Virus record (IMG/VR): IMGVR_UViG_3300050821_008607
Span: 1-64,000 of that record
Length of the DNA: 64,000 nt
Source: a virus
Reading direction: 5' to 3' (one strand)
The translations under genes were made by a program, and so were the position numbers. Positions 50,901-64,000 of the stretch are shown in pieces (positions within the stretch are counted from its first letter, which is position 1; each line of letters opens with the position of its first letter). The notes below the pieces were generated by a model that saw only the letters and a program-made list of their open reading frames with translations, ran no database searches and was not told the origin of the DNA.

Positions 50901-51219
50901 CGCCGTCCTCCGCAGCCGCCGCCTGCGACTGGGCCTCCAGAAGGGCCCGCTCGGCGGTGGCCTGCTGCTCGGCGGTCGACGCCACCCGGGACTGGGCGGC
51001 GCTCAGCTTCGCGTCGGCCAGCTCCATCGCGTTGGCGCCCGACGCGGTCTGCAGTAGCGACGCGTCGATCTTCTCCCCGGCCACCCCGGCGACCTCAGCC
51101 GCCCGGGCCGCAGTGCTCGCGAACTTGTCGAACGACGCGTCGATGCGCTCGGCGGTCCGCGTGGCCCTGTCGACGATCTCGATGACGGCCAGGACGGAGA
51201 AACCCTCAACGCTGCCCAC
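47989..51219 (-). CDS. Tape measure protein (TP901-like core)
   Basis: 1076 aa Ala-rich helical, W-spaced repeats, LGINSPSKVF. Confidence 0.95.
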   Translation of the reverse strand: MGSVEGFSVLAVIEIVDRATRTAERIDASFDKFASTAARAAEVAGVAGEKIDASLLQTASGANAMELADAKLSAAQSRVASTAEQQATAERALLEAQSQAAAAEDGDTAATERLVAASRALTDAQKQSALAAKEAGAAQEHQASVQRATAAASGESAAATDAAAASTTRAGASAERAAAGGSLMSKGMGMAGLAVAAVGVLAIKAAGNFESMTEHLVTDAGESQSGLAKIRAGMLQIAADTGTTTSQMAAGMYHVESAGFHAANGGLDVMRVAAEGAKVGGADLDTVSKALTGTMNAYGMSGDKANVMMNEMITTVGQGDMKMQDLAASLGNVAPLAAAVHIKFSEVGGALATMTAQNMSAQQATQDLAFTIRDLTNPLGPARSEMQALGLSVNGVTQELGSKGLVATLETVTNALAAHTKGGQVFISSLKDSKVAAADLNVMMGQLSPSIQGTAKALQAGTITAKQYNKDLSGLSLPQKALAQQFEALVKKSSSFNDLLKSGSPQAQAMTAALSKLMGGSTGLNTALMITGGRMDTFKNGAKAIEESATKGGKGVDNWAAIQGTFNQKLDVAKASIEAAGISLGTVLLPPVSAIAGAIAKVVVPMATWIAHNQKIVGLLLAVAGAIGAVVLAMKAWEIVQGVMNALALIFAGAEAAILSPAELIVIAIAAVVAGVVYAYFHFKVFRDVVNAVADAVRIAFFAMWHALEAAWRAIAAAAVAVGHALAAAWGAVVGAAEAVWHALEAAWNAVASVTTTVWNAISGFFAKWWPLLLMIFLPAVAAVIGIWNHFHTQIIGTAKAVWGAVAGFFVATWHVIEAGARLAWNAIKVTIIQPIQATWSAIQPIIHAIESFLAAIWRGIQATASAVWNGIKAAIINPITGAWHAVVSVVGNIGSAIGSGLQSAWNAVSNIGSKFLSIGSDIVNGIVSGIEGAASWLFNSVGDLAKNALKSAMSALGINSPSKVFADGVGMAIPEGIAKGVNDHAHLAHAAVRNLSGALPGSAQTALTGSLSLAGAGAGLSYGGGAGGGGGTLVVHNHFEGAHFSSKADMDRLINDIGRSLATKMLPQGGYRSRG

Positions 51220-51428
51220 TGTTCGCCCGCCTCTGCTGTTCTTGTTCCTGGCTGGTGATCAGCTGCAGGTAGACGAGGTAGTCCTCAAGCTCACGGGCAG
51301 GCAGCGCTTCGATGTCAGCCTTCGTCATCCCCAGGCGCTGCCAGAACTGCTGCCTCGTCCAGAACGTCGACAGACTCGGCGGCCCCGGTGCCCCCATCCG
51401 GATCGCCGCCGACGCCTCCAGCAGGAAA
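51206..51428 (-). CDS. Frameshift extension of the tail assembly chaperone
   Basis: +1 frame FLLEASAAIRMG...FWQRLGMT..DIEALP..ELEDYL runs up to the TMP start. Confidence 0.65.
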
Positions 51429-51791
51429 CTGACGCGACTCCGCCTTGGTCCTCGCACCGTTCGACTCGTCGATGAGCTCCCACAGCTGGTCGAAGACCAC
51501 GCCGGGCAGGCGCTTGACGGACTGCAGGTTCAGCGGCCAGATCGGGCCGTCGTCCTCGTCGGCGAGGTTCCAGTCGGCGATGCTGGCCAGGAGCAGCGTC
51601 TGCCGGTACTTGACTGTGTCGGGCTTGACCTCGCGGCCTTTCTCGTTGATGACGACGTTCGCCAGCGCGCGCTCGCCGGCTTCCTGCTGTCCGTGGGAGA
51701 GGTGCTGGCGGATGTCGATCCAGTACTTGCCTTCGGGGTCGCCGACCTCGACGCGGGTGATGCCGGAGTAGGCGGAGAGGAATCCGGGCAT
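51315..51791 (-). CDS. Tail assembly chaperone
   Basis: Between tail tube and TMP; SIADWNLADED..IWPL...V.RLP. Confidence 0.85.
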   Translation of the reverse strand: MPGFLSAYSGITRVEVGDPEGKYWIDIRQHLSHGQQEAGERALANVVINEKGREVKPDTVKYRQTLLLASIADWNLADEDDGPIWPLNLQSVKRLPGVVFDQLWELIDESNGARTKAESRQFPAGGVGGDPDGGTGAAESVDVLDEAAVLAAPGDDEG

Positions 51792-51823
51792 GGGGTCCTG
51801 CTTTCGTGCTGAGGGTGGGCATG

Positions 51824-51853
51824 AAAAAGCCCCGGGCCGTCTGGCTCCAGGGC
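51824..51853 (-). terminator. Hairpin plus T-tract after tail tube gene
   Basis: GCCCTGGAGCC-AGAC-GGCCCGGGGC-TTTTT. Confidence 0.55.
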
Positions 51854-51870
51854 GTGCGGTCGGCGGTGTG

Positions 51871-53094
51871 TCAGTACGGGAGGTACGCCGAGTTGGAGAC
51901 CGTGGCCTGCACGGTGTACTGGCTGGCGCCGGTCAGCGGGCGCGAGGCCTCGTAGGTCAGGGCAGACATGACCACGTCCTCGGCCTTCACCGTCGACCCG
52001 TACTTGGCGACGGCGATCTGCGGCATTGTGATCACGATCGTGCCCGCGCTGGCCGGGTGCGCCAGGGTGAACGTCATTGCGCCCAGGGTCTGGTTGTGGG
52101 CGCGGTTGAAGTCGCCGTACGTGGCGTCGTCGAGCGAGGACCAGACGACGTCGACGGCGCCGGAGACGTGCAGGTTCACCGGGGTCAGGAAGCTCGGCCC
52201 GTGGTTCCCGCTGTAGGTGTAGGTCTCCTTGACGCCGTTCTCGATCACGATCCCGACGTTGCTCACGTCGGCCCGGGCGCCGCTGTAGAAGTTGATCGTG
52301 GCCTCGGAGAACACGAACGGCATCTCGTTGGCGACCGACACCGCGCTGGGGTTGTCGAGGATCGCGACGGACTGGCCCATCAGGTCCGCGGTCATCTCCA
52401 CTGCGGTGTTCCCGACCGGGGCCTTGAGGTCGAACTTGTTGACGCGGCATCCGGCGAACTGCAGCGACTGGTAACCGCCCATGTTCTTCTCTACCGTCAG
52501 CGACGGCAGGAGGTTCTGCTGCTGGATGGTGTGCAGGAACGGCGCGGTCACGATCTTCACGGCGGCGCCGGTGAGGTGGTTGTACGTCAGCGCGACGTCC
52601 ACGGTGAGGGTGTTCGTCGCCACGTTGGTGACCTTGCGGACCTCCGCGGTGGTCGTGGGCCCGGTGCCGTTGACGTCGATCTGCACGATCGAGCCGATGG
52701 CGTAGCCGGCCGCGGACGTCACTACGACGGTCGTGGTGCCCGCAGTCAGGCCGCCGTTGAGGGTGGTCGGCGACGTCGACCCGGTGCCGGTGATCCCGGC
52801 CCCGGCGATGTTGTCCGCGCCGATGCTCGCCACCAGCAGCGCCATGGCATTGGACGGGAAGATCGGACCCGTGAGCGATCCGGCGTACTTGGCCTCGCCC
52901 TGCAGGTTGTAGACCTGCTTGTCGCGCAGGTTCTGCATCAGAACCGGCGAGAACCAGCCCGGGTCTTCCTCGGCGGTGTTGTCCGTCATCGGGAGGTAGG
53001 TGGTGGGCGTCAGGGGCACACCGAAGGTGGCCTCCTTTGCCAGTCCGGTCGCGGACAGGGAACCGGGGCGCTCGATGATGTTCGGGTACGGCAT
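51871..53094 (-). CDS. Major tail (tube) protein
   Basis: GLAKEATFG.P, LPSLTVEK, F.GCRVNKF; position. Confidence 0.85.
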   Translation of the reverse strand: MPYPNIIERPGSLSATGLAKEATFGVPLTPTTYLPMTDNTAEEDPGWFSPVLMQNLRDKQVYNLQGEAKYAGSLTGPIFPSNAMALLVASIGADNIAGAGITGTGSTSPTTLNGGLTAGTTTVVVTSAAGYAIGSIVQIDVNGTGPTTTAEVRKVTNVATNTLTVDVALTYNHLTGAAVKIVTAPFLHTIQQQNLLPSLTVEKNMGGYQSLQFAGCRVNKFDLKAPVGNTAVEMTADLMGQSVAILDNPSAVSVANEMPFVFSEATINFYSGARADVSNVGIVIENGVKETYTYSGNHGPSFLTPVNLHVSGAVDVVWSSLDDATYGDFNRAHNQTLGAMTFTLAHPASAGTIVITMPQIAVAKYGSTVKAEDVVMSALTYEASRPLTGASQYTVQATVSNSAYLPY

Positions 53095-55518: not shown

Positions 55519-56199
55519 TCAGGCGACGCGCTCGGTCCAGCCGCCGAGCAGCTGGATCGAGTTCCCGGATGCGCCTGGGGTGATGTCCAGCACCCATGCC
55601 TTTGTCGAGGTCAGCGACACCGTCACCGCCGATGTTGCCGCCGCCATGTACAGCGACGCCGCACCAGCCGCGGCCGAGTTGATCGAGATCTCCGTCAGGC
55701 ACTCGACGGTCGTCGGCGTCAGAAAGTTGATCAAGGTCTCGTGCTTCCACTGGGCCGCCGTCAGCGAGGTGCCCAGCACGATGCTGGCCGTCGCCAGCAG
55801 TGACGTGCCCGCAACGCCGCCCAGCCGCGACGTGAACACGGTGTTGCCCGGCGAGCCGGTCGAGGAGAACACACCCCAGCCGACCATCTTGTACACCGCG
55901 CCCGCGATCGCGTCGTTCGCCGGAAGCGACATCGACTGCAGCACTGTCTCAGCGGTGGTGCCGGTGATCGCCGCGCCCGCGGCGGTCTGCCCGCCCTGCG
56001 AGCCGACGATCGTGTTCACGAGGCCCTGCGGGTTGATGTAGGTCATTACGCCGCCGGTCGCGTACAGCTCGGCGCCACCGACGGGAGTCGCGGGCTGGGC
56101 GGCCTGGTTGGACAGGGTCAGCGGGCCCTGCATGGTGAAGCCGCCGGATTCGGCTGCGGCGGGGCCATTGGAACCGCCGGTGACGATCGCACTGGGCAT
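55519..56199 (-). CDS. Virion structural protein (head fibre/decoration-like)
   Basis: 226 aa Ala/Thr/Gly-rich; GGAGGT RBS. Confidence 0.65.
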   Translation of the reverse strand: MPSAIVTGGSNGPAAAESGGFTMQGPLTLSNQAAQPATPVGGAELYATGGVMTYINPQGLVNTIVGSQGGQTAAGAAITGTTAETVLQSMSLPANDAIAGAVYKMVGWGVFSSTGSPGNTVFTSRLGGVAGTSLLATASIVLGTSLTAAQWKHETLINFLTPTTVECLTEISINSAAAGAASLYMAAATSAVTVSLTSTKAWVLDITPGASGNSIQLLGGWTERVA

Positions 56200-56262
56200 G
56201 GGATACCTCCAAGAGACTGGTGCGGCGTACCGCGCGGGTCAGAACGGTGAGACAGCCGACTG

Positions 56263-56685
56263 CTACTCGGCCTTGGCGGTGCGCCGGCTCGCCGCGGTCT
56301 TACGCGGAGTACGAGCCGTCTTCTCGGCGGGCGGCTCGTCTGCGGCAGCCTCCGCGCCGTCGTCGGCGGGGGTGGTCGCGTCCTCGGCGGGAGCTTCCTG
56401 CTTGGCGACGCTCGCAACCCCGGCCGACTGGGCGGCGCGCATGAGCTGCTCGACCACGCCCAGCAGCGTCGCCGGATCCTTGCGGCGCTCCATCTCCTCG
56501 CCGATGAGGCGGTGCTGGCGCTCGATGTCGGTCTCCCAGCCCGGTCGGCCGCCGGGGTGGAAGTGGTGCATCTGGTCGGACAGGTCGTCCGGGAAGTCGA
56601 AGCCGCCCTGTTCGTCGGCCTCGTAGACGATGCCGGTGGCTGGGTCGGTGAGCGCGATCGCGCCCGTGCGCGTGTACAGGCGCAT
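56263..56685 (-). CDS. Hypothetical protein after capsid
   Basis: MRLYTRTG...; AAGGAG RBS. Confidence 0.7.
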   Translation of the reverse strand: MRLYTRTGAIALTDPATGIVYEADEQGGFDFPDDLSDQMHHFHPGGRPGWETDIERQHRLIGEEMERRKDPATLLGVVEQLMRAAQSAGVASVAKQEAPAEDATTPADDGAEAAADEPPAEKTARTPRKTAASRRTAKAE

Positions 56686-56814
56686 GCGTGGCTCCTTGGA
56701 AAGGGTGAGGGTGGGTGGTGCCGAGTGCGGCCCCCGCAGGGGGCGGGCTCCTCGCGGGGGCTGCAACGGGGGCGCGATTGATCACGGGCCCCAGGGGTGA
56801 ATCCGCAGGTCAGA

Positions 56815-58314
56815 TCAGGCGCAGTTCGCCAAAACTGCCATGGCAACGGGGGCCCTGTTGACCAGTGCGGAGACGGTCCGGATCTCGAATTCTTTCCTCG
56901 GGCCACCACCAGCGGTGTTCGCGACGCGGCTGATGCCGTAGTCGAACTGGGCGGTGTCGCGCAGGGTGCGGCACTCCAGCACGCTGGAGATGTTGGCCTG
57001 CGGGAACGGAACCCTGTCGGTCCTCGCGACGATCGTGCCCGGGGGCAGGGAGACATGGACCTCGATCGGAACGGTCACGCCCCCCGCCGGGGCGTTGACG
57101 ATCTCGCCGACCCGGCCACCGGCCGTGGTCGAGATACGGCCCGAGGCGTCGGTGGTGAGGTACGTGGTCGCGGAGTTCGACCCGAGGACGAGGTTCGCGA
57201 TCTCCTGCGCCTGCTGGGCGTTCATCATCAGCGCGGTGGGGCTGCACTTGACGGCGTTCCACAGGGGCAGGAACACGTCGTTCTCGATCTCGTTGACGGT
57301 GCCGCCGGTCAGGGTCAGCGCGGCTCCGTCGAGGGAGTTGAAGATCGACGGGTTGGCTGTGCCGGTGCCGGGGGTGCCCCACTGGCCGGAGCCGTTGTAG
57401 TCGCCCGCCAGGGAGGCGAGGAACCCGTCGTAGTCGTTGGCGTTGGCCGACCCGTTGTCCGCCGCGGTGTTGATGGTCGGGACCGTGCTGGCGGTGCCCT
57501 TCCACGACGTGGACAGGTCCGGAACGCCGTTGCCCGTCGGCAGCGCCTGGTTCGAGGAAATGGTCTTGGTGACCGTCACCGTGTTGGTGGTGGTGGTCGT
57601 GTAGTAGTACCAGGTCGACCCGTTCGCCGAGTAGAACCAGTCGTACGCCACGGCCCCGCGCACGGCGGCGACGGTCGCGGTGACGGAGTTCGTGGACCCG
57701 GAGCCGAACGTGGACACCAGGCTGCTGGTGCCCTGGGAGTTCCCCGAGCCGTAGTAGTAGCCGGAGCCGGTGCGGGCGGCGACGCCGACGTACAGGCTGA
57801 CCGCACCGATGGTTCCGCCGGTGGCGTGCTGGGTGACGACCGGGGCGGCCGGGGCGGCGAGCGCGAAGCTCTGGGCGCCCATCAGCTTGCGGTCCTCGCC
57901 GATCAGCAGCTGGTTGAGGGTCTGGAACGTGGAGATGGCGTACGGGTCGCCGTAGCCCTTGGCGAGGTCGTAGGCGTCCTGGGTGACCAGGCCGGCGTAG
58001 CCGATGGGCTTGTAGCGGGCCTGGAAGTCCTGCTCCAGGAACTGGACCTCGTTGGCGGCGTAGTCGAAGCCCATGGAGGGATCCGGCTGCGAGTTGGTGA
58101 GGTTCATGATCGCGCGCCACACGGCGTACGGGTTGCCGTCCGGGCTCATCTTGCGGGCGACGATGTCGCGGAACGGGGTGACGACGGGGATCAGCGAGAC
58201 GAGCTCGGAGAGGTCGTAGCTGTAGATCCCGGTGGATTCCAGGATCCCGCTGGTCTGGGCCTTCATGATGGCGCCGAGGGTCTCCTCGGTCATGTCTGCG
58301 AGCGGTGCGCTCAA
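56815..58314 (-). CDS. Major capsid protein
   Basis: TTG start after AGGAGG; YDL.....LIPV.TPFR..V.R, L...EDR.L.G, I.VH..LPPGTI; position after scaffold. Confidence 0.85.
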   Translation of the reverse strand: MSAPLADMTEETLGAIMKAQTSGILESTGIYSYDLSELVSLIPVVTPFRDIVARKMSPDGNPYAVWRAIMNLTNSQPDPSMGFDYAANEVQFLEQDFQARYKPIGYAGLVTQDAYDLAKGYGDPYAISTFQTLNQLLIGEDRKLMGAQSFALAAPAAPVVTQHATGGTIGAVSLYVGVAARTGSGYYYGSGNSQGTSSLVSTFGSGSTNSVTATVAAVRGAVAYDWFYSANGSTWYYYTTTTTNTVTVTKTISSNQALPTGNGVPDLSTSWKGTASTVPTINTAADNGSANANDYDGFLASLAGDYNGSGQWGTPGTGTANPSIFNSLDGAALTLTGGTVNEIENDVFLPLWNAVKCSPTALMMNAQQAQEIANLVLGSNSATTYLTTDASGRISTTAGGRVGEIVNAPAGGVTVPIEVHVSLPPGTIVARTDRVPFPQANISSVLECRTLRDTAQFDYGISRVANTAGGGPRKEFEIRTVSALVNRAPVAMAVLANCA

Positions 58315-58335
58315 GGGATGCCTCCTGGGCATGCG

Positions 58336-58368
58336 AAAGCCCCCGGGCGCGGTGCGCTCTCGGGGGCT
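58336..58368 (-). terminator. Hairpin plus short T-tract between scaffold and capsid genes
   Basis: AGCCCCCGAGAGCGC-ACC-GCGCCCGGGGGCT-TT. Confidence 0.5.
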
Positions 58369-58392
58369 GGGGTGGGGATGCTGGTGGGGCGC

Positions 58393-60246
58393 CTACTGGC
58401 GGGCGCCGCCCTGGTGGATCGCCTGGAGCGCGGCGATGGCGTCGGCCTGCATGTCCTGGGCGATGCGGTTCTGCTCGGTCGCATTGGCGGCCTTGTACAG
58501 GCGGCCCTTCTGCTCCCGGGCCTTGACCACGTCGACCTGGGCGCCTGCGCCTCGGTCCATGCCGCGCAGGTCGCGCGGCGGGACGGCTCCGTTGGTGAAG
58601 ACACGCGGTTCGGCGGGCTGCTCCTCCAGCGCCCCGATGCGGCCCTTCAGCTCCTTCACGAGGTCCGCCAGCTCCAGGACCGCGTCCGCCTGCTTGGCGA
58701 GGACGGTGTTCTGGCTGGCGCTGTGCTCGGTGAAGGCGCTCTCGACCGCAGCCAGGAGGCTGCTCTTGAACACGTCCGTGAGAGTGGTGTCGGGGATGGA
58801 CTTGGTGACTGCCTCGTCGTCCGTGGGGACGGCGTCGGCGGGGGTGCCGGCCTCGGCCGCAGGGGCGGGGGTGAGGTCGGTGGTCTCGGGGGTAGCCGGG
58901 GCGTCGGTGTCGGCGCCGTCCGTGTCGCTGCCGGTGTCGGAGCTGTCGTCGTCGGCGGATGCCCCGGAGACCATGGTGATCTTCTCGGGGTCGACGATGC
59001 CGACGAGCTTGCCGCTGGCGTTGAACACGGCGACCATCTCCGGCTTGTCGCCGTCGGCCTTCGCCACATCGGTGACGACCTGCCCGGCGACGGGCTTCGG
59101 GTCGGCCTGCTGGGCGCCCATGGCGGGCTCCTGGCCGGAGGCCGCAGTGGCGTCGGCGCTGGGGGTGGGCTCGGCCATGTCGGCCTCCTCGTTCGCGGTC
59201 TTGGCGACCGGGGCCCCGGCCTCCTCGGTGGTGGGGGCCTGCGGGAGGGACGCGAGAACCTTCTGCAGGGAGTCGACGGCGCCGCGGATCGCGGCCTCGT
59301 TGCCCGCGGACAGGACGCGCCCGGCCTTGCGGACGTGGCCGAGGGCCTCGATGGTGTCCAGCGAACTCGGATCCCAGTCGGCGAGGGCCTTGCCGACCAT
59401 CTGCATGTCGTCGCAGCAGTCGGCCTCGGCCTGCTCGGAGACCGCGAACGGCGCGAGGACGCTGATGGCGTAGTCGAGGGCGCAGCACGCGTCCTGGAGG
59501 TCCCAGGCGTTCTCGGCGTCGCCCTCGTCCCCGGCCGCGGCCTCCATCAGTTCACGGTCGGCGAGCATGTCGACGGCGGCCTTGGCCCGCGCCAGGATCG
59601 ACGTCCACTTGCGGGCGGTCGCGGCGTCGACGGCCTCCCAGGCCGGGGAGCCAGGGTCGGTGTCCATGCCGGGGGCGTCGCCGTCGGGCTCGGCAAGGGC
59701 GGTCATCGGGTCCAGGGCGTCGTCGTCCATGCTCGTCTCCTTCGTGACGTCGCCCTTCAGCGAGCCGTCGGCGTTCCAGGTGTCCGGGATCTCGGACTGG
59801 GCGCCGAGGGCCTTGGCTCGTGCGATGACGTGGCGTCGGATCGCGTCATGCTCGGCGCCGCCGCGGCCGACCGCGCGCACTGCGCGGTTGAGGTCTTCAC
59901 GGTCGGCGATCGGGTAGCTCTCGTTGGCCATCGCGGCGCCCGACGCGGCCATGCGCTTGAGGTCGTCGGCGTCGTACTTCGCCTTGAGGACAGCAACCTC
60001 GTGGATCATCTTCGCGATCGCGCCCGGGCTGCCGGTCATCGTCACCGTCTCCTCCGGGATTGGCTCAGGATCAGCCTTGGCGAGCAGCTCGCGGACGAAG
60101 CCGGGGTCGAGGAGTCCGGCGCTGTCGTCGTGCTTCATGAGGAGGAAGCCGGGGACGCCGTTCGCGGCTTTTCCGACGAGGTCGACGCGGGGGATGTTGG
60201 CCTCTGTTGCCTCGGTCCAGTCGTCCTCGTCGAGGAGGTCGGTCAT
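58393..60246 (-). CDS. Scaffolding/capsid maturation protein
   Basis: 617 aa acidic, N-terminal VDLVGKAAN, SYPI...DL..AV.A.GR domain, C-terminal coiled coil. Confidence 0.7.
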   Translation of the reverse strand: MTDLLDEDDWTEATEANIPRVDLVGKAANGVPGFLLMKHDDSAGLLDPGFVRELLAKADPEPIPEETVTMTGSPGAIAKMIHEVAVLKAKYDADDLKRMAASGAAMANESYPIADREDLNRAVRAVGRGGAEHDAIRRHVIARAKALGAQSEIPDTWNADGSLKGDVTKETSMDDDALDPMTALAEPDGDAPGMDTDPGSPAWEAVDAATARKWTSILARAKAAVDMLADRELMEAAAGDEGDAENAWDLQDACCALDYAISVLAPFAVSEQAEADCCDDMQMVGKALADWDPSSLDTIEALGHVRKAGRVLSAGNEAAIRGAVDSLQKVLASLPQAPTTEEAGAPVAKTANEEADMAEPTPSADATAASGQEPAMGAQQADPKPVAGQVVTDVAKADGDKPEMVAVFNASGKLVGIVDPEKITMVSGASADDDSSDTGSDTDGADTDAPATPETTDLTPAPAAEAGTPADAVPTDDEAVTKSIPDTTLTDVFKSSLLAAVESAFTEHSASQNTVLAKQADAVLELADLVKELKGRIGALEEQPAEPRVFTNGAVPPRDLRGMDRGAGAQVDVVKAREQKGRLYKAANATEQNRIAQDMQADAIAALQAIHQGGARQ

Positions 60247-60626
60247 GGGTCACTCCTTCGGTGAGGTCGGCGCCGGGCGACGCCCTGGGGTGAGAAGCCG
60301 GTGACCTTGCCGGACTTGACGAGCCGCCAGGCCGTGTCGTCGCAGATCCCGCCGATGAGCCAGTCCCCGGCTTTGATGACCACACCGTTGCCCTGGTCCC
60401 AGTCCGGGCCGCGATAGATGTACGACTCGGTGACCTGCATGTGGCCGAGGGTGCCCTCGGCGTGAAACAGCCCGACCTGGGCGCCCCCGGGCAGATAGCT
60501 CCAGCAGGCCTTCTCCAGCTCCTCCGCGGTGAAGAAGTCCCGCGCCCCGTCAGCGCCCTTCGCGATGCGCGGATCCTGGCCGGCCTGGTATGCCAAACCG
60601 AGGACGAACCTGGCCTCTTCGGCCAT
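60243..60626 (-). CDS. XkdF-like prohead serine protease
   Basis: D...DFFTAEELEKA, GLFH, ESYI, GDWL.G....W..VK.GK.TGFS..G. Confidence 0.85.
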   Translation of the reverse strand: MAEEARFVLGLAYQAGQDPRIAKGADGARDFFTAEELEKACWSYLPGGAQVGLFHAEGTLGHMQVTESYIYRGPDWDQGNGVVIKAGDWLIGGICDDTAWRLVKSGKVTGFSPQGVARRRPHRRSDP

Positions 60627-60635
60627 GGGCACCCC

Positions 60636-63600
60636 CTATGCGCTCAGGACGGCACACCGACACCGTGGGTGCGCCGGTACGGATCGGTCCCCCGAGGGGA
60701 ATGAGGCGCCGAGCTGGATCGGCCCGGCCCCGGCGTTGGCGATACACCGCGGGCACGTTCGGCTGGACGGGTCCAGGGCCCAGCGGACTTGGGTGACGCC
60801 GAGCTGCTGGTAGCCGAACAGTGCGGCGAGGCCCGACGAGCGGGTGATCTCCGTGATGGCGACGGCCAGTGCCCGGTCGACGCTGCCCAGGGCACTGCGC
60901 AGGGTCCGGCCCAGGGCCAGGGCGGTTGCCCCGGCGATGAGACCCTTGGCCAACTCGCGGGCCAGGTCCCGGCGGCGCGTGTCGGCAATGCCCTGCGCAG
61001 TCTCGGGAACCTGGTCGAGGATCGGCGTCAGGCCCTCGTCGGCGCCCTGGTCGGTGATGGTCCGCTGGGCTCGGGCGGTGTCGCCGGGTGTCCAGCCGTT
61101 GCGCTCTGCCCGGTCGCCGGTGGCTGCGGCGTGGGCGGAGGTGAGGCCGACGAGATAGCCGTCGGTGTACAGCCCCGGCAAGGTGTCGACGAGCGGGGTG
61201 GTGAGGTCCAGGGTCTGGCTTCCGAGCCACGCCTCAGCGGCTGCGGTCAGTTCGCCCTGTTCGGGGCTGCTGGTCTCGTCGAGCTGGTGCTCGGCGAGGA
61301 ACCGGCCGGCGACGTCCTGGGCTGCCGCGGCGGTGAGGACGCCACCGAGTGCCGCGGCGATCACTGCGGCCCAGTGGTTGGCGGCGTCCTCGTCGGTATC
61401 CCAGCCAGGCCACTGGTCGGCAGCCCCCTGGCCAGGGGCTTCACCTTTTCCCGCGCCGACCTTCTCCAGCACCTCGACGCCGAGGGCGGTGAGGACCTGG
61501 TCGAGGTCGGCAAGCAGCTCGGGGCGCACGGCCGGGTTCCCGGCCAGTTGCCCGGGGTGCATCCAGGCGATCGCTTCGATGCAGTCGCCGTCCGGGTCGT
61601 CCGGGTTGGTGACATCCCGGTCGCCGCGAACCGGCACCATGGCCTCGGAGTCGACCGTCCAGACGATGCCCTGGTAGACGCCGTCCGGACTGACCCATGT
61701 GCCGCTCTGGACGCCCGGGGGCGGGATGGACCCGGTCTCCTCCGACCATTCACGCCACGCGCCCATGAGCGGCGACTCGGCCCCTTCGAGGTGACCGCCG
61801 GGGAACTCGAAGGTTCCACCTGCGGGGTCCTCGGGGTCGAGGCAGCGCTGCAGCATCAGGACGCGGCCAGTGTCAGCAGCGCGCACTGCGAGGCCAGCGA
61901 CACTGACCTCACCTGCTGCCTTGCGGACGGCGAGCCGGGCGCTCTGGTTGAGGCGCCGTCCGCGGATCGGGTCGATGGCGCGGAACTCGAAGGGCTCCCA
62001 CTGGCCGGTGCGGCGCCGCTTCTTGGTGAACGACCGGAACGCGGCCAGCTCGCTCTTGGCCAGCTGCTCCCGGTCCTCCTGGTCGTCGTTCTCGTCGTCG
62101 TGCTGCCCCACGAGGTCGTAGGAGGTGATGCCCGTGGCGGTCGTGATCCCCGCCGTGGGGGCGCCGTCCTTCGCAACCTCGGTCGCGGGGGCTTCGGCGA
62201 CGGGCTGCGGGGGTGGGGCGGTGGGCATCGCGTCGAGGCCGTAGATCTGCTCCGCGAGCGGGACGCCCTTCGCCGGCGGTTCCGGGGTGATGCCTTCCGC
62301 GCCGGTGAACACCGAATGTGGCAGCGGCGCGCCGGGTTCGGGGGCGCCGGTCTGGGTGTCGATCTCTCCCGCCACCGAGTACAGCGACGACAGTGGCACT
62401 GGGCCGGCGTGGGAGGTGAAGATGAATCGGGGCACCGGCTGGCCGTTCGGCTCCTGGAGGCCGTAGCGGCTCTCCCGGATCTCGGACGCGCCGACGACAC
62501 CGAGTTCGATGTAGATCTTGTCTGCCTGGGCCTGCTGCAGCCGGTCGGCCTGCTCCTCGCCGAGGTCGAAGGCGAAGTCGAGCGGCAGGCCGAGATCGTC
62601 CTGGAGGAACGCGGACAGGATCGTCTGGACGTGGCGCAGCAGCGGCAGGTCGCCGACGCGGTGCTGGACGTCGGCCTGCGACTCACCGCTGCTCTTGTTG
62701 ACGGACTCGGTGAATCCGAGGTCGGCCGGTACGACGTGGAATGCCGCCGCGGTCTTCCGCATCAGGAACAGGCTGAAATGATCCTGGAAGTCTTTCTCGT
62801 TGGACCATTCGATCTTGCCGCCGCCGGGCATCCACTTGATCTGGGCCTTGGCGGCCTGGTCGCCCAGCATCCAGGCGTCCCAGTAGGTCTGGAATGCCTC
62901 GATCTGGTCGGGGGTCCAGGTCTCGGGTGCGGACGCGAACGCGGAGGGGATGTTGCCCTCGGTGAAGCGCTGCAGGAAGTACGCCTGGAACCTGAGGTCG
63001 GTGTTGGCGTTGAGGAGGATCGTCTCCAGCGGCGCCAGCCCGTAGGGGCTGTTGGCGCGCTTGCGGAACGGCTGGTAGATCAGGTCGTCGCGGGTCAGCT
63101 GGTCCCACGGCAGGCCGTTGACGTACTGCACGAACGCCGGGGCCGGCGTCTCGGGGCTGTTGCCCCAGTAGTCGAGCAGTGGCGCGATCATGGTGCCGTC
63201 TACGACGCGCAGGCCGATGGCGTCACCGCGGCGGTTCCGGAGCCGGTACAGGGTTCCGGCGTCGTAGGCGAGGGTGTCGTACAGGAACGAGCCGAGCCAG
63301 GCGCTGAAGGACTGCTGGCCGTCGGGCTTGGCGAGGGCTTTCATGCCGATCTGGATGGCGTCGGCGAGGTCGCCGCCGTTCCCGTCCTTGGCGACCAGGG
63401 ACCAGTCGAGGGAGCGGATCGAGTCGATGCGGTGCCAGATGCACATCTGGGCGACGTCGTAGGACTCGATCAGGCCGCGCAGGGTGTCGAAGCTGACGCG
63501 CTCGTAGGTCCGCGGCCTGGTGGCCACGTTGTAGTTGGTGACGTAGTTCTCGGTGCGCGGGGTGCGCGAGTACCCGTCGTAGGGCCCGAGTGGTGTGCCG

Positions 63601-63707
63601 GGGCTGAACGGCGACGCCGGGGTCATCTGGGATGCTGCCTGGCCTGCCGCGATGGCTGCGGGCACGTTCGTTCCGTAGGTCTTGACCAGGCGGCGGGGGT
63701 CGGGCAC
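60636..63707 (-). CDS. Portal protein fused to NUDIX and MuF (gp7-like) domains
   Basis: Portal motifs (VDG..I.P, YGL.PLE, F.EGNIP, A.F.V.P.DLG); Nudix box GHLEGAESPLMGAWREWSEETG; MuF TE..R...W....RTCPRC...PAHPRCRC. Confidence 0.88.
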   Translation of the reverse strand: MPDPRRLVKTYGTNVPAAIAAGQAASQMTPASPFSPGTPLGPYDGYSRTPRTENYVTNYNVATRPRTYERVSFDTLRGLIESYDVAQMCIWHRIDSIRSLDWSLVAKDGNGGDLADAIQIGMKALAKPDGQQSFSAWLGSFLYDTLAYDAGTLYRLRNRRGDAIGLRVVDGTMIAPLLDYWGNSPETPAPAFVQYVNGLPWDQLTRDDLIYQPFRKRANSPYGLAPLETILLNANTDLRFQAYFLQRFTEGNIPSAFASAPETWTPDQIEAFQTYWDAWMLGDQAAKAQIKWMPGGGKIEWSNEKDFQDHFSLFLMRKTAAAFHVVPADLGFTESVNKSSGESQADVQHRVGDLPLLRHVQTILSAFLQDDLGLPLDFAFDLGEEQADRLQQAQADKIYIELGVVGASEIRESRYGLQEPNGQPVPRFIFTSHAGPVPLSSLYSVAGEIDTQTGAPEPGAPLPHSVFTGAEGITPEPPAKGVPLAEQIYGLDAMPTAPPPQPVAEAPATEVAKDGAPTAGITTATGITSYDLVGQHDDENDDQEDREQLAKSELAAFRSFTKKRRRTGQWEPFEFRAIDPIRGRRLNQSARLAVRKAAGEVSVAGLAVRAADTGRVLMLQRCLDPEDPAGGTFEFPGGHLEGAESPLMGAWREWSEETGSIPPPGVQSGTWVSPDGVYQGIVWTVDSEAMVPVRGDRDVTNPDDPDGDCIEAIAWMHPGQLAGNPAVRPELLADLDQVLTALGVEVLEKVGAGKGEAPGQGAADQWPGWDTDEDAANHWAAVIAAALGGVLTAAAAQDVAGRFLAEHQLDETSSPEQGELTAAAEAWLGSQTLDLTTPLVDTLPGLYTDGYLVGLTSAHAAATGDRAERNGWTPGDTARAQRTITDQGADEGLTPILDQVPETAQGIADTRRRDLARELAKGLIAGATALALGRTLRSALGSVDRALAVAITEITRSSGLAALFGYQQLGVTQVRWALDPSSRTCPRCIANAGAGPIQLGASFPSGDRSVPAHPRCRCAVLSA

Positions 63708-63721
63708 CGGGACCCCCTTGT

Positions 63722-64000
63722 TCAGCGTTGGGCGCGGTAGGCGGCGTTGCGGGCCCGCTGGCGGGCGGCGGCCGGATCCTCTTGCTGCTCGGGGGCAGGC
63801 GGCGGCGCGGCAGTCGGTGCCAGGTCGGGAAGTTCCGCGTCAGCTCCGCCTTGCGTCGCGGCCTCGGCCTGACGGCGCATGTAGCTGATCCAGCTCTGGG
63901 CGCTGAAGTCGTCGGTCAGCTCGGTCACCGCCCACACGAGAGCGTCGAGCCGGTCGGGGCTGGTGCCGTCCTGTGGCGTCCACGTCGTCATCTGGTCTTC
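63722..64000 (-). CDS. Terminase large subunit, C-terminal end (partial)
   Basis: EDQMTTW...SPDRLDALVWA.TEL; upstream of portal; runs off the window. Confidence 0.85.
   Translation of the reverse strand, partial: EDQMTTWTPQDGTSPDRLDALVWAVTELTDDFSAQSWISYMRRQAEAATQGGADAELPDLAPTAAPPPAPEQQEDPAAARQRARNAAYRAQR

What the first reader, a model, noticed from the sequence alone, without database searches (positions are those of the whole stretch)
60636..63707. Portal-NUDIX-MuF triple fusion: a nucleotide hydrolase built into the DNA gate
Seen: one ORF with a portal domain, a Pro-rich linker, a NUDIX domain (about 61480-61910) with a complete GX5EX7REUXEEXG box, and a C-terminal MuF domain with CxxC and HPRCRC. 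Known: MuF proteins often carry enzymatic cargo, portal-MuF fusions occur in actinophages, and NUDIX enzymes hydrolyse ADP-ribose, NAD-derived and alarmone nucleotides. Inference: up to 12 NUDIX copies are packaged, perhaps released by the adjacent protease and injected, or act at packaging, to counter nucleotide-based defence such as ADP-ribosylation or signalling nucleotides.
Basis: partly seen in the sequence, partly recalled or inferred. Interest (0 to 1): 0.8.

Follow-up and report, generated by a model that had tools for sequence, protein, structure and literature searches.

The report
Portal-NUDIX-MuF head gene with frameshift site
This phage's DNA-gate (portal) gene really carries a built-in nucleotide-cleaving NUDIX enzyme and a MuF head domain, a layout already common in actinobacterial phages and noted in print, and a conserved ribosome-slipping signal between enzyme and MuF probably makes the protein both with and without MuF.

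Summary
Window 63707-60636 (minus strand) is one real 1023-aa gene. It encodes a portal domain (about residues 70-460), a disordered Pro/Ala linker, a two-helix module, a NUDIX domain (598-750) with a complete catalytic box, a second linker, and a MuF domain (765-1023) with CPRC and HPRCRC. It lies between the terminase gene and an XkdF-type prohead protease gene.

The layout is not rare:
- Hundreds of homologues carry it, in Streptomyces, Kitasatospora and Streptacidiphilus prophages, IMG/VR contigs, and Arthrobacter phages Sonali and Mufasa8.
- Iyer et al. 2022 (PMC9503650) already described Nudix fused to portal, MuF or head protease and proposed packaging and injection.

What I add:
- NUDIX sits in a swappable cargo slot, which is empty in some relatives and holds a 2H phosphoesterase in one.
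- Its catalytic residues are invariant across relatives.
- Its substrate class cannot be assigned.
- An in-frame slippery heptamer (G_GGA_AAA here, C_CCA_AAA in most relatives) with a downstream hairpin sits exactly at the NUDIX/MuF boundary. It is conserved in about 40 diverged loci. It predicts a dnaX-like -1 frameshift giving a 755-aa portal-NUDIX form alongside the full fusion.

This scan has noted portal-MuF frameshift sites before on other DNA, and I found no paper describing them. The anti-defence role remains inference.

The parts
60636..63707 (-). Portal-NUDIX-MuF gene, 1023 aa, GTG start
   Evidence: ORF list and translation; GC3 0.90; Pfam and PHROGs domains
62328..63500 (-). Portal domain, about residues 70-460
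   Evidence: PF04860 at 86-412, E 5e-16; phrog_2662 at 50-435, E 2e-66; AF2 folded region
62094..62327 (-). Disordered Pro/Ala-rich linker, residues 461-538, containing conserved short motifs
   Evidence: pLDDT below 50; nearly invariant V511, K513, G520, T522, Y530 and D531 in 54 relatives
61917..62093 (-). Acidic run plus two-helix basic module, residues 539-597 (ELAAFRSF...WEPFEF)
   Evidence: AF2 helices 539-567 and 580-597; E553, W570, F573 and F575 invariant; a similar motif lies after NUDIX in Sonali
61458..61916 (-). NUDIX cargo cassette, residues 598-750
   Evidence: PF00293, E 1e-12; cleanly absent from the 70%-identical relative P0108; domain model pLDDT 91.7 with a Nudix fold
61731..61796 (-). 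NUDIX box GX5EX7REUXEEXG, residues 638-659
   Evidence: Read directly from the translation; G637, G638, E644, R652, E653, E656 and E657 invariant in 54 relatives
61584..61607 (-). NPDDPDGD acidic loop, a signature of this NUDIX subfamily (residues 701-708)
   Evidence: P105, D106, P108 and D111 of the domain invariant in 41 subfamily members; coordinates
61446..61452 (-). In-frame slippery heptamer G_GGA_AAA (codons 753-754), predicted -1 frameshift site
   Evidence: The same position holds C_CCA_AAA or G_GGA_AAA in about 40 related loci, including Sonali and Mufasa8, built from rare codons (CCA 7.6% of Pro, AAA 13.5% of Lys)
61441..61443 (-). TGA stop in the -1 frame, one codon after the slip; the short form would be 755 aa
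   Evidence: the -1 stop lies within 1-11 codons in 34/34 in-frame loci against 12% of background positions
61422..61440 (-). Hairpin AGCCCCU-GGCCA-GGGGGCU, starting 5 nt after the heptamer
   Evidence: RNAfold -17.3 kcal/mol, 3.5th percentile of windows in the gene; a hairpin of at least 5 bp in 30/41 loci against 16.7% background, with 19 distinct stems
60639..61415 (-). MuF (SPP1 gp7 / Mu gpF-like) domain, residues 765-1023, with CPRC (60744-60755) and HPRCRC (60654-60671)
   Evidence: PF04233, 27.9 bits; phrog_115 at 1e-11; AF2 pLDDT about 90; C985, C988, H1013, R1017 and C1018 invariant
60243..60632 (-). Adjacent prohead protease, XkdF / Peptidase_S78_2 type, 129 aa
   Evidence: PF14550, E 9e-12; phrog_3017 at 3e-15
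63722..64000 (-). 3' end of the upstream gene, read as the terminase large subunit by synteny (475 aa; runs to 65149 of the contig)
   Evidence: ORF with GC3 0.89. In Sonali and Mufasa8 the terminase gene sits directly upstream of the homologous portal fusion. Not scanned against domain libraries here

Best explanation
This is the portal gene of a temperate Streptomycetaceae-type siphophage, on a 98-kb contig. The portal's C-terminal end, which in known portals faces the capsid interior, is extended by a flexible linker. After the linker come a two-helix module, a cargo slot holding a catalytically intact NUDIX pyrophosphohydrolase, and a MuF (SPP1 gp7-like) domain.

Shown:
- the domain order;
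- the intact and invariant catalytic box;
- the cassette-like presence or absence of NUDIX among relatives;
- the wide spread of the layout.

Strongly inferred (about 0.8): a conserved -1 programmed ribosomal frameshift at G_GGA_AAA (61452-61446), followed by a hairpin. It makes some ribosomes stop one codon later, so the gene yields a 755-aa portal-NUDIX form and the 1023-aa portal-NUDIX-MuF form. Every portal subunit would then carry NUDIX, and only a fraction would carry MuF.

Inferred (about 0.4-0.5): the head-enclosed NUDIX is a virion-borne effector. It may be freed by the neighbouring prohead protease and delivered with the DNA, or it may act in or at the head. It would hydrolyse a host nucleotide-diphosphate-X molecule early in infection, such as ADP-ribose or NAD-derived signals, or dinucleoside polyphosphates. 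The substrate is unknown.
For: Architecture.

Gene context: the order is a gene read as terminase by synteny, then the portal fusion, an XkdF-type protease, a 617-aa ORF with no hits (possible scaffold), an MCP-like gene, tail tube and tape measure. The same head-gene order occurs in Arthrobacter phages Sonali and Mufasa8, whose gp3 proteins have the same three Pfam domains.

Spread: 704 homologues at E<1e-5. Nearly all of the top 120 carry portal plus NUDIX, many in chromosomes of isolates, so an assembly artefact is excluded.

Selection on the enzyme:
- The NUDIX box residues are invariant in 54 relatives of 56-89% identity and in 41 subfamily members.
- NUDIX is about as conserved as the portal domain and far more conserved than MuF. 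In L020, for example, identities are 69% (portal), 61% (NUDIX) and 35% (MuF).

Cargo slot: P0108, L038 and L047 lack exactly the NUDIX cassette. L036 has a 2H phosphoesterase in the same slot.

The subfamily as head cargo:
- 956 representative clusters match the domain, and almost all are long multidomain proteins.
- Of 50 sampled, 20 carry a portal domain, 10 MuF, 3 an S78 protease, 3 a 2H domain, 1 Acb1 and 2 an ADP-ribosyltransferase.
- Pam4 gp13 is MuF-NUDIX.

Frameshift:
- The heptamer is present at the junction in about 40 loci.
- The -1 stop lies within 1-11 codons in 34/34 in-frame loci, against 12% of background positions.
- In L018, L029 and L037 the 0 frame stops after 19-23 codons and MuF continues in the -1 frame. 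In L029 and L037 there is no start codon between the upstream -1-frame stop and the conserved MuF N-terminus.
- A hairpin is enriched downstream, with 19 different stem sequences.
- Four copies that lack the heptamer also lack the Pro-Lys dipeptide. The conservation is therefore at the nucleotide level.

The published inference of packaging and injection is in PMC9503650.
Against: - No protein-level data exist: the two products, cleavage by the protease, presence in virions and injection are all untested.
- A portal subunit cannot leave the virion. Delivery therefore needs a cleavage for which I have no evidence.
- Neither sequence nor fold assigns a substrate class. Similarity to T4 NudE is limited to the 25-residue box.
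- Four Streptomyces prophage copies lack the slippery site, so the frameshift is not obligatory for the family.
- In most loci the shift truncates the protein, while in three it extends it. The two layouts give opposite major products unless frameshift efficiency is near one half.
- I made no formal covariation count on a structural alignment, because the MAFFT alignment was not in register.
Confidence: 0.6

Rival explanations
1. The fusion is made only as the full-length 1023-aa protein. The conserved heptamer is then a relic or a module-boundary sequence, for example a recombination joint between cargo and MuF modules, and no programmed frameshift occurs.
For: The heptamer lies exactly at a module boundary where cassettes are exchanged. 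Four prophage copies do without it. No protein data exist.
Against: - The heptamer is always in the X_XXY_YYZ register and is built from rare codons in genes with GC3 of 0.9.
- The -1 stop follows within 1-11 codons in 34/34 loci, against 12% of background positions, and is itself made with rare GGT or GCT codons.
- A hairpin is enriched at 3-9 nt downstream.
- In three loci MuF lies in the -1 frame from this very site, and one of them (P0099 / L018) is a cluster of 3 member sequences.
- Seven bases are too few to serve homologous recombination.
Confidence: 0.15
2. The NUDIX domain is an RNA 5'-end pyrophosphohydrolase or decapping enzyme (RppH-like or NAD-cap removing). It would trigger host mRNA decay or process phage RNA, rather than hydrolyse small signalling nucleotides.
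For: Bdellovibrio RppH chains are among the best structural matches (ranks 2-6). NCBIfam gives a weak YtkD 'RNA deprotection pyrophosphohydrolase' match. From general knowledge and PMC9503650, viral Nudix decapping enzymes are known in poxviruses and giant viruses.
Against: The matches are no better than those to ADP-ribose pyrophosphatases, MutT, NUDT15 or Ap6A hydrolase (TM 0.45-0.67). The co-cargo domains seen with this subfamily (2H, Acb1-like, ADP-ribosyltransferase) point towards nucleotide and ADP-ribose chemistry.
Confidence: 0.15
3. The NUDIX domain is a housekeeping nucleotide sanitiser (MutT-like), or a catalytically irrelevant structural plug or spacer inside the head.
For: Source annotations call homologues '8-oxo-dGTP pyrophosphatase MutT'. 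There are weak MutT matches in NCBIfam.
Against: Those scores are far below the equivalog cut-offs, for example 20 against 98-148 bits. A sanitiser has no reason to be tethered inside the capsid. The invariant catalytic residues argue against a purely structural role. The domain is dispensable in close relatives, which fits an accessory effector better than a structural part.
Confidence: 0.08
4. The triple fusion is an assembly or gene-calling artefact.
For: None found.
Against: The same single ORF occurs in hundreds of independent contigs, in isolate chromosomes and in two sequenced cultured phages.
Confidence: 0.01

Closest known systems
Arthrobacter phage Sonali gp3 ('portal and MuF-like fusion protein', QAY16116) and Mufasa8 gp3 (QGJ93453; RefSeq name 'MutT/NUDIX hydrolase')
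   Same: Both have the same three Pfam domains in one protein of about 1000 aa and the same head-gene order. Identity is about 40%, and NUDIX is the best conserved segment. Both have C_CCA_AAA at the start of MuF, with a -1 stop 9 codons later and a CCCUCC/GGAGGG hairpin.
   Different: In those phages the two-helix motif appears to lie after NUDIX, whereas here it lies before it. That similarity is weak: local score 51 against a shuffle mean of 32 and maximum of 45. The host genus differs. Neither the frameshift nor the enzyme is annotated or studied in those records.
Head-packaged Nudix fusions and polyvalent proteins described by Iyer, Burroughs, Anantharaman and Aravind (Viruses 2022, PMC9503650; J Bacteriol 2017, PMC5512222)
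   Same: They describe Nudix fused to portal, MuF or the capsid protease. They also describe 2H phosphoesterases and ADP-ribosyltransferases in equivalent fusions, and they infer packaging and injection.
   Different: They assign such Nudix domains to a T4 NudE-like clade. Here the similarity to T4 NudE is confined to the Nudix box. They report no frameshift and no swappable slot between a helix module and MuF.
SPP1 gp6 portal and gp7 (MuF family), and MuF polymorphic toxins (Jamet et al. 2017, PMC5576092, cited in PMC7911831)
   Same: The MuF domain has the CxxC...HPxCxC signature and is encoded next to the portal. From general knowledge, gp7 binds the portal and is present in few copies per virion. 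A frameshift-limited MuF dose would mimic that arrangement.
   Different: Here MuF is joined to the portal covalently, or by recoding. The cargo lies upstream of MuF rather than at its C-terminus. One relative, P0116, has both a NUDIX upstream and an ADP-ribosyltransferase downstream.
E. coli dnaX tau/gamma -1 frameshift (general knowledge)
   Same: An in-frame X_XXY_YYZ heptamer ending in a Lys codon, a downstream hairpin, and a -1 stop almost at once. The shift therefore gives a truncated protein that lacks the C-terminal domains.
   Different: The gene, organism and heptamer differ (G_GGA_AAA or C_CCA_AAA). An upstream Shine-Dalgarno-like element is not established. Three relatives use the opposite layout, in which the shift extends the protein as in lambda G/GT.

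Membership tests
Phage portal protein (PF04860) | Profile match above the curated cut-off | tested here: met
   59.1 bits against 39.1, residues 86-412; phrog_2662 at 2e-66
Phage portal protein (PF04860) | Position in the head module, directly after the large terminase gene | tested here: met
   A 475-aa upstream ORF ends 14 nt before the start; synteny with terminase-portal in Sonali and Mufasa8
NUDIX hydrolase superfamily (PF00293) | Profile match above the curated cut-off | tested here: met
   48.6 bits against 21.1, residues 607-728
NUDIX hydrolase superfamily (PF00293) | Nudix box GX5EX7REUXEEXGU with the metal-binding Glu residues | tested here: met
   Residues 638-659 match; the last U is Ser. 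E644, R652, E653, E656 and E657 are invariant in 54 relatives
NUDIX hydrolase superfamily (PF00293) | Alpha/beta/alpha Nudix fold | tested here: met
   Domain model pLDDT 91.7; 498 PDB chains at E<=0.001, and all 50 listed matches are Nudix enzymes
NUDIX hydrolase superfamily (PF00293) | Pyrophosphohydrolase activity | not testable with these tools
   Needs an enzyme assay
T4 NudE-like phage Nudix clade (Iyer et al. 2022) | Specific sequence relationship to T4 NudE beyond the Nudix box | tested here: not met
   BLASTP aligns only 25 residues of the box, E 0.009. An IME08 NudE model ranks 28th among viral folds, no better than generic Nudix proteins
MutT / ADP-ribose pyrophosphatase / RppH equivalogs (NCBIfam) | Score above the equivalog cut-off | tested here: not met
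   Best score 25.5 bits against cut-offs of 98-245
MuF / SPP1 gp7 head morphogenesis (PF04233) | Profile match above the curated cut-off | tested here: inconclusive
   27.9 bits against 29.6 for this protein. However, phrog_115 scores 1e-11, and aligned homologues pass (Sonali 38.5 bits, L032 46.3 bits)
MuF / SPP1 gp7 head morphogenesis (PF04233) | C-terminal CxxC ... HPxCxC signature | tested here: met
   CPRC at 985-988 and HPRCRC at 1013-1018; C985, C988, H1013, R1017 and C1018 invariant
Head-packaged effector / polyvalent protein (Iyer et al. 2017, 2022) | Effector enzyme domain fused to a virion head protein in the head gene cluster | tested here: met
Head-packaged effector / polyvalent protein (Iyer et al. 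2017, 2022) | Presence in virions and delivery into the host | not testable with these tools
   Needs virion proteomics and infection assays
Programmed -1 ribosomal frameshift, dnaX type | In-frame X_XXY_YYZ heptamer conserved in diverged relatives | tested here: met
   About 40 loci. Other in-frame heptamers with Y = A or T number 9 in 32,640 codon positions
Programmed -1 ribosomal frameshift, dnaX type | Stimulatory structure 5-9 nt downstream | tested here: met
   Hairpin in 30/41 loci against 16.7% background, with 19 stem variants; MFE percentiles. No formal covariation test was made
Programmed -1 ribosomal frameshift, dnaX type | Alternative frame gives a defined second product | tested here: met
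   -1 stop within 1-11 codons in 34/34 in-frame loci; MuF in the -1 frame in 3 loci
Programmed -1 ribosomal frameshift, dnaX type | Two protein products observed | not testable with these tools
   Needs mass spectrometry, western blot or a reporter assay

The most novel reading that the evidence does not exclude
A conserved dnaX-like -1 frameshift at the cargo/MuF boundary sets how many of the 12 portal subunits carry MuF, while all 12 carry the enzyme. The position between the helix module and the slip site is a plug-in slot for head-delivered nucleotide-degrading counter-defence enzymes (NUDIX, 2H or none). My searches found this recoding of a portal gene in no paper.
Probability: 0.45. Interest if true: 0.75.

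Novelty: new variant of a known kind. Interest (0 to 1): 0.5.

Why it matters
The fusion itself is ordinary for actinophages and has been noted in print, so it is not a discovery on its own. Three points make it useful.

- It offers a simple, widespread test bed for virion-borne counter-defence enzymes. One gene has a slot that natural relatives fill with NUDIX, with a 2H phosphoesterase, or with nothing. Cultured relatives (Sonali, Mufasa8) can be mutated and plated.
- If the frameshift is real, portal genes join dnaX and the tail chaperones as recoded genes. That would also explain how a dodecameric ring can carry a bulky MuF domain on only some subunits.
- This NUDIX subfamily has about 950 representative clusters, nearly all inside head or polyvalent proteins, and no known substrate. 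Finding the substrate would show which host nucleotide these phages need to destroy.

Tried and rejected
- Megablast of 56000-64000 against GenBank phages gave no match.
- The PDB sequence search with the NUDIX domain gave only weak box-level hits, best E 6e-4.
- NCBIfam gave no equivalog.
- The comparison with T4 NudE aligned only the Nudix box.
- Foldseek against PDB and BFVD returned generic Nudix folds, so no substrate could be inferred.
- Classical downstream-residue rules suggest an ApnA hydrolase: Tyr678 lies about 17-19 residues after the box and is invariant. This rests on my own recall, so I treat it as a weak lead only.
I used IMG/VR and GTDB loci instead.
- A MAFFT alignment of the junction was not in structural register. 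I therefore made no RNAalifold or pair-count test and used per-sequence hairpin and MFE statistics with in-gene backgrounds instead.
- I looked for a canonical heptamer in this phage's tail-chaperone region, for comparison, and found none.
- Three literature searches for a portal or MuF frameshift found no report. One more, for GeneTack phage cases, found nothing relevant.
- The plus-strand 983-aa ORF was rejected as a high-GC shadow.
- I did not scan the upstream 475-aa ORF against domain libraries. It is called terminase by synteny only.


Full report
**1. The observation**

The ORF sits on the minus strand, 63707 to 60636, and encodes 1023 aa from a GTG start.
- It is a real gene. Its GC3 is 0.90, like the other coding ORFs of this 70% G+C contig.
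- An AAGGGGG ribosome-binding site lies 7 nt before the GTG, and the upstream gene stops 14 nt before it.
- The 983-aa ORF on the plus strand is a low-complexity shadow frame.

Domain matches:
- Pfam finds Phage_portal at 86-412 (E 5e-16), NUDIX at 607-728 (E 1e-12) and Phage_Mu_F at 915-1020 (27.9 bits, just under the 29.6 cut-off).
- PHROGs gives portal at 2e-66, minor head protein / MuF at 1e-11, and MutT/NUDIX at 5e-10.
- The Nudix box is residues 638-659 and is complete. CPRC and HPRCRC are present in MuF.

An AlphaFold2 model built on 54 homologues sets the boundaries:

| Residues | Element |
|---|---|
| 70-460 | portal |
| 465-542 | disordered |
| 539-597 | two helices |
| 603-741 | NUDIX |
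| 746-763 | disordered |
| 769-1023 | MuF (pLDDT about 90) |

**2. Context**

The contig is 98,183 bp, and the window is its first 64 kb. On the minus strand the gene order is:
- a 475-aa ORF, read as terminase by synteny only;
- this gene;
- a 129-aa XkdF/S78_2 prohead protease;
- a 617-aa ORF with no hits;
- an MCP-like gene;
- tail tube;
- tape measure.

The closest named homologues are in Streptacidiphilus (81% identity), Kitasatospora and Streptomyces chromosomes. This is therefore a temperate phage or prophage of Streptomycetaceae.

**3. How common the layout is**

- Arthrobacter phages Sonali (gp3, annotated 'portal and MuF-like fusion protein') and Mufasa8 (gp3) have the same three Pfam domains, a similar length and the same head-gene order.
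- In the three-way alignment, NUDIX is the best conserved stretch.
- The large protein collection holds 704 homologues at E<1e-5. Nearly all of the 120 best carry PF04860 plus PF00293, with or without PF04233.
- IMG/VR gave 44 loci. GTDB genomes gave 15 loci, of which 11 span the gene.
- An assembly artefact is therefore excluded.
- Iyer et al. 2022 (PMC9503650, section 3.5.2) state that phage Nudix proteins are fused to MuF, portal and the capsid-processing protease, and suggest packaging and injection.

**4. The NUDIX domain**

- All catalytic box residues (G637, G638, E644, R652, E653, E656, E657) are invariant in 54 relatives of 56-89% identity.
- The same holds in 41 members of the subfamily from other architectures. 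These also share an invariant NPDDPDGD loop.
- Across IMG/VR loci, NUDIX is nearly as conserved as the portal domain and much more conserved than MuF.
- A domain-only model has pLDDT 91.7 and a clear Nudix fold.
- The nearest solved and viral structures are a mixture: RppH, ADP-ribose pyrophosphatase, MutT, NUDT15, Ap6A hydrolase and DDP1, at TM 0.45-0.69.
- Similarity to T4 NudE is confined to the box, and no NCBIfam equivalog is approached.
- The enzyme is very probably active, but its substrate class cannot be named.

**5. A cargo slot**

- P0108, 70% identical over the portal, linker and helix module, lacks exactly residues 598-750 and resumes at the linker before MuF. L038 and L047 do the same.
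- L036 has a 2H phosphoesterase (PF13563, E 8e-6) in the same place.
- P0116 adds an ADP-ribosyltransferase after MuF.
- I searched the NUDIX domain alone against 1.84 billion representatives. It found 956 clusters (322 at E<1e-30), almost all in long multidomain proteins with a median length of 835 aa.
- In a systematic sample of 50 of these, 20 carry a portal domain, 10 MuF, 3 an S78 protease, 3 a 2H domain, 1 an Acb1-like domain and 2 an ADP-ribosyltransferase. Others carry LPD1, RadC, GNAT or ParB-N.
- Cyanophage Pam4 gp13 is MuF-NUDIX-(long C-terminus), and Streptomyces phage Gilgamesh gp52 carries the domain next to the capsid gene.
- This is a phage-specific NUDIX subfamily that travels as head-protein cargo. 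That fits the polyvalent / packaged-effector concept (PMC5512222).

**6. The junction signal**

A note from this scan on the same window pointed to G_GGA_AAA at 61452-61446. I tested it.
- The heptamer is in frame (codons 753-754). The -1 frame reads GGG AAA AGG TGA and stops.
- A 7-bp hairpin starts 5 nt downstream (61440-61422). Its energy is -17.3 kcal/mol, the 3.5th percentile of equal windows in the gene.

The same position holds C_CCA_AAA or G_GGA_AAA in:
- 31 of 36 NUDIX-bearing junctions counting the window, plus L035, where the site lies further downstream;
- the NUDIX-less L036, L038, L047 and L049;
- Sonali and Mufasa8;
- 7 of 11 prophage copies in isolate or MAG genomes.

In all of these it lies 253-287 codons before the stop, just before MuF.

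Controls:
- These genes use CCA for 7.6% of Pro codons and AAA for 13.5% of Lys codons.
- Other in-frame heptamers of this kind number 9 in 32,640 codon positions.
- In 34 of 34 in-frame loci the -1 frame stops within 1-11 codons, against 12% of background positions and a background median of 68 codons.
- The -1 stop is itself built from rare GGT or GCT codons.
- In L018, L029 and L037 the layout is reversed. The 0 frame stops after 19-23 codons and MuF continues in the -1 frame. In L029 and L037 a stop lies just upstream in that frame, and no ATG, GTG or TTG precedes the conserved MuF N-terminus. The L018 type is a cluster of three member sequences.
- A perfect hairpin of at least 5 bp lies 3-9 nt downstream in 30 of 41 loci, against 16.7% of background positions. 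There are 19 different stem sequences, for example GCCCCC/GGGGGC, GCCUCC/GGAGGC, GGCCCC/GGGGCC, CCCUCC/GGAGGG and CCGCC/GGCGG.
- Four Streptomyces prophage copies lack the heptamer and also lack the Pro-Lys dipeptide. The Pro-Lys conservation therefore serves the RNA signal, not the protein.

I conclude, with a probability of about 0.8, that this is a programmed -1 frameshift of the dnaX type. It would give a 755-aa portal-NUDIX form besides the 1023-aa fusion. Four literature searches found no report of it. This scan has noted portal-MuF slip sites on other genomes, including a CCCAAAA site at a 2H/MuF boundary.

**7. How it most likely works**

Shown: a portal subunit with a tethered, intact NUDIX domain and a MuF domain.

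Established knowledge: portal C-termini face the capsid interior, and SPP1 gp7 (MuF family) binds the portal in a few copies.

Inferred:
- all 12 subunits carry NUDIX inside the head;
- recoding limits MuF to a subset of subunits;
- the enzyme acts on a host nucleotide at or soon after DNA entry, provided the adjacent protease frees it. Otherwise it acts within or at assembling heads, or as free subunits late in infection.

The conserved short motifs in the 'disordered' linker (VAKDG, TGITxYDLVG) are candidate cleavage or docking sites, but this is speculation. Association with 2H / Acb1-like and ADP-ribosyltransferase cargo favours NAD/ADP-ribose or signalling-nucleotide chemistry over MutT-type sanitation. 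An RppH-like RNA role is not excluded.

**8. Verdict**

The triple fusion is a new member of a known and published kind. The swappable slot and the conserved recoding site make it a new variant worth modest follow-up. The function of the enzyme remains untested.

Noticed in passing
window 58393-60246 (-): A 617-aa ORF with GC3 0.94 lies between the prohead protease and the MCP-like gene and has no Pfam or PHROGs match. By position it is a scaffold candidate. The genes in the same position in Sonali and Mufasa8 are also annotated as hypothetical.
   Followed up: no
window 56815-58332 (-): A 505-aa ORF lies in the major capsid position. It matches only phrog_13692, which is annotated 'unknown function' (E 3e-42).
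   Followed up: no
L036:8-3049: This relative has a 2H phosphoesterase (PF13563) in the slot where this phage has NUDIX. It still has C_CCA_AAA before MuF.
   Followed up: partly
L018:5233, L029:5266, L037:5188: In three IMG/VR relatives the portal-NUDIX frame stops 19-23 codons after the heptamer and MuF lies in the -1 frame. This is the extension-type layout of the same signal.
   Followed up: yes
L052, L055, L056, L058 (Streptomyces prophage copies): These junctions have lost both the slippery heptamer and the Pro-Lys dipeptide. They are fused in-frame versions without the signal.
   Followed up: partly
P0116; P0036, P0076, P0093, P0107: Homologues carry extra modules. P0116 has a C-terminal ADP-ribosyltransferase (PF03496). 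The others have inteins (Hint, Intein_splicing or LAGLIDADG) inside the portal or MuF parts.
   Followed up: partly
L034:4692-5050: The NUDIX coding region of this relative is interrupted by about 119 codons. It may be an intein or an insertion; I did not examine it.
   Followed up: no
L003:2921-5962 (Pseudanabaena phage Pam4 gp13); L004:4413-6338 (Streptomyces phage Gilgamesh gp52): The same NUDIX subfamily (47-52% identity) occurs in other head-module proteins. Pam4 gp13 is a MuF-NUDIX protein annotated as a capsid maturation protease. Gilgamesh gp52 is a 641-aa 'hydrolase' near the capsid gene, and a 4624-aa gene (gp48) lies about 1.3 kb upstream of it.
   Followed up: partly
window 61917-62093 (-) vs L001 (Sonali) residues about 663-717: The helix motif ELxx[FW]RSxT..R...GQ lies before NUDIX here but after NUDIX in Sonali and Mufasa8. 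That would mean NUDIX was inserted at different points. The similarity is weak: local score 51 against a shuffle mean of 32 and maximum of 45.
   Followed up: partly
window 51150-51900 (-): No canonical X_XXY_YYZ heptamer was found near the end of the putative tail-chaperone ORF upstream of the tape measure gene.
   Followed up: partly
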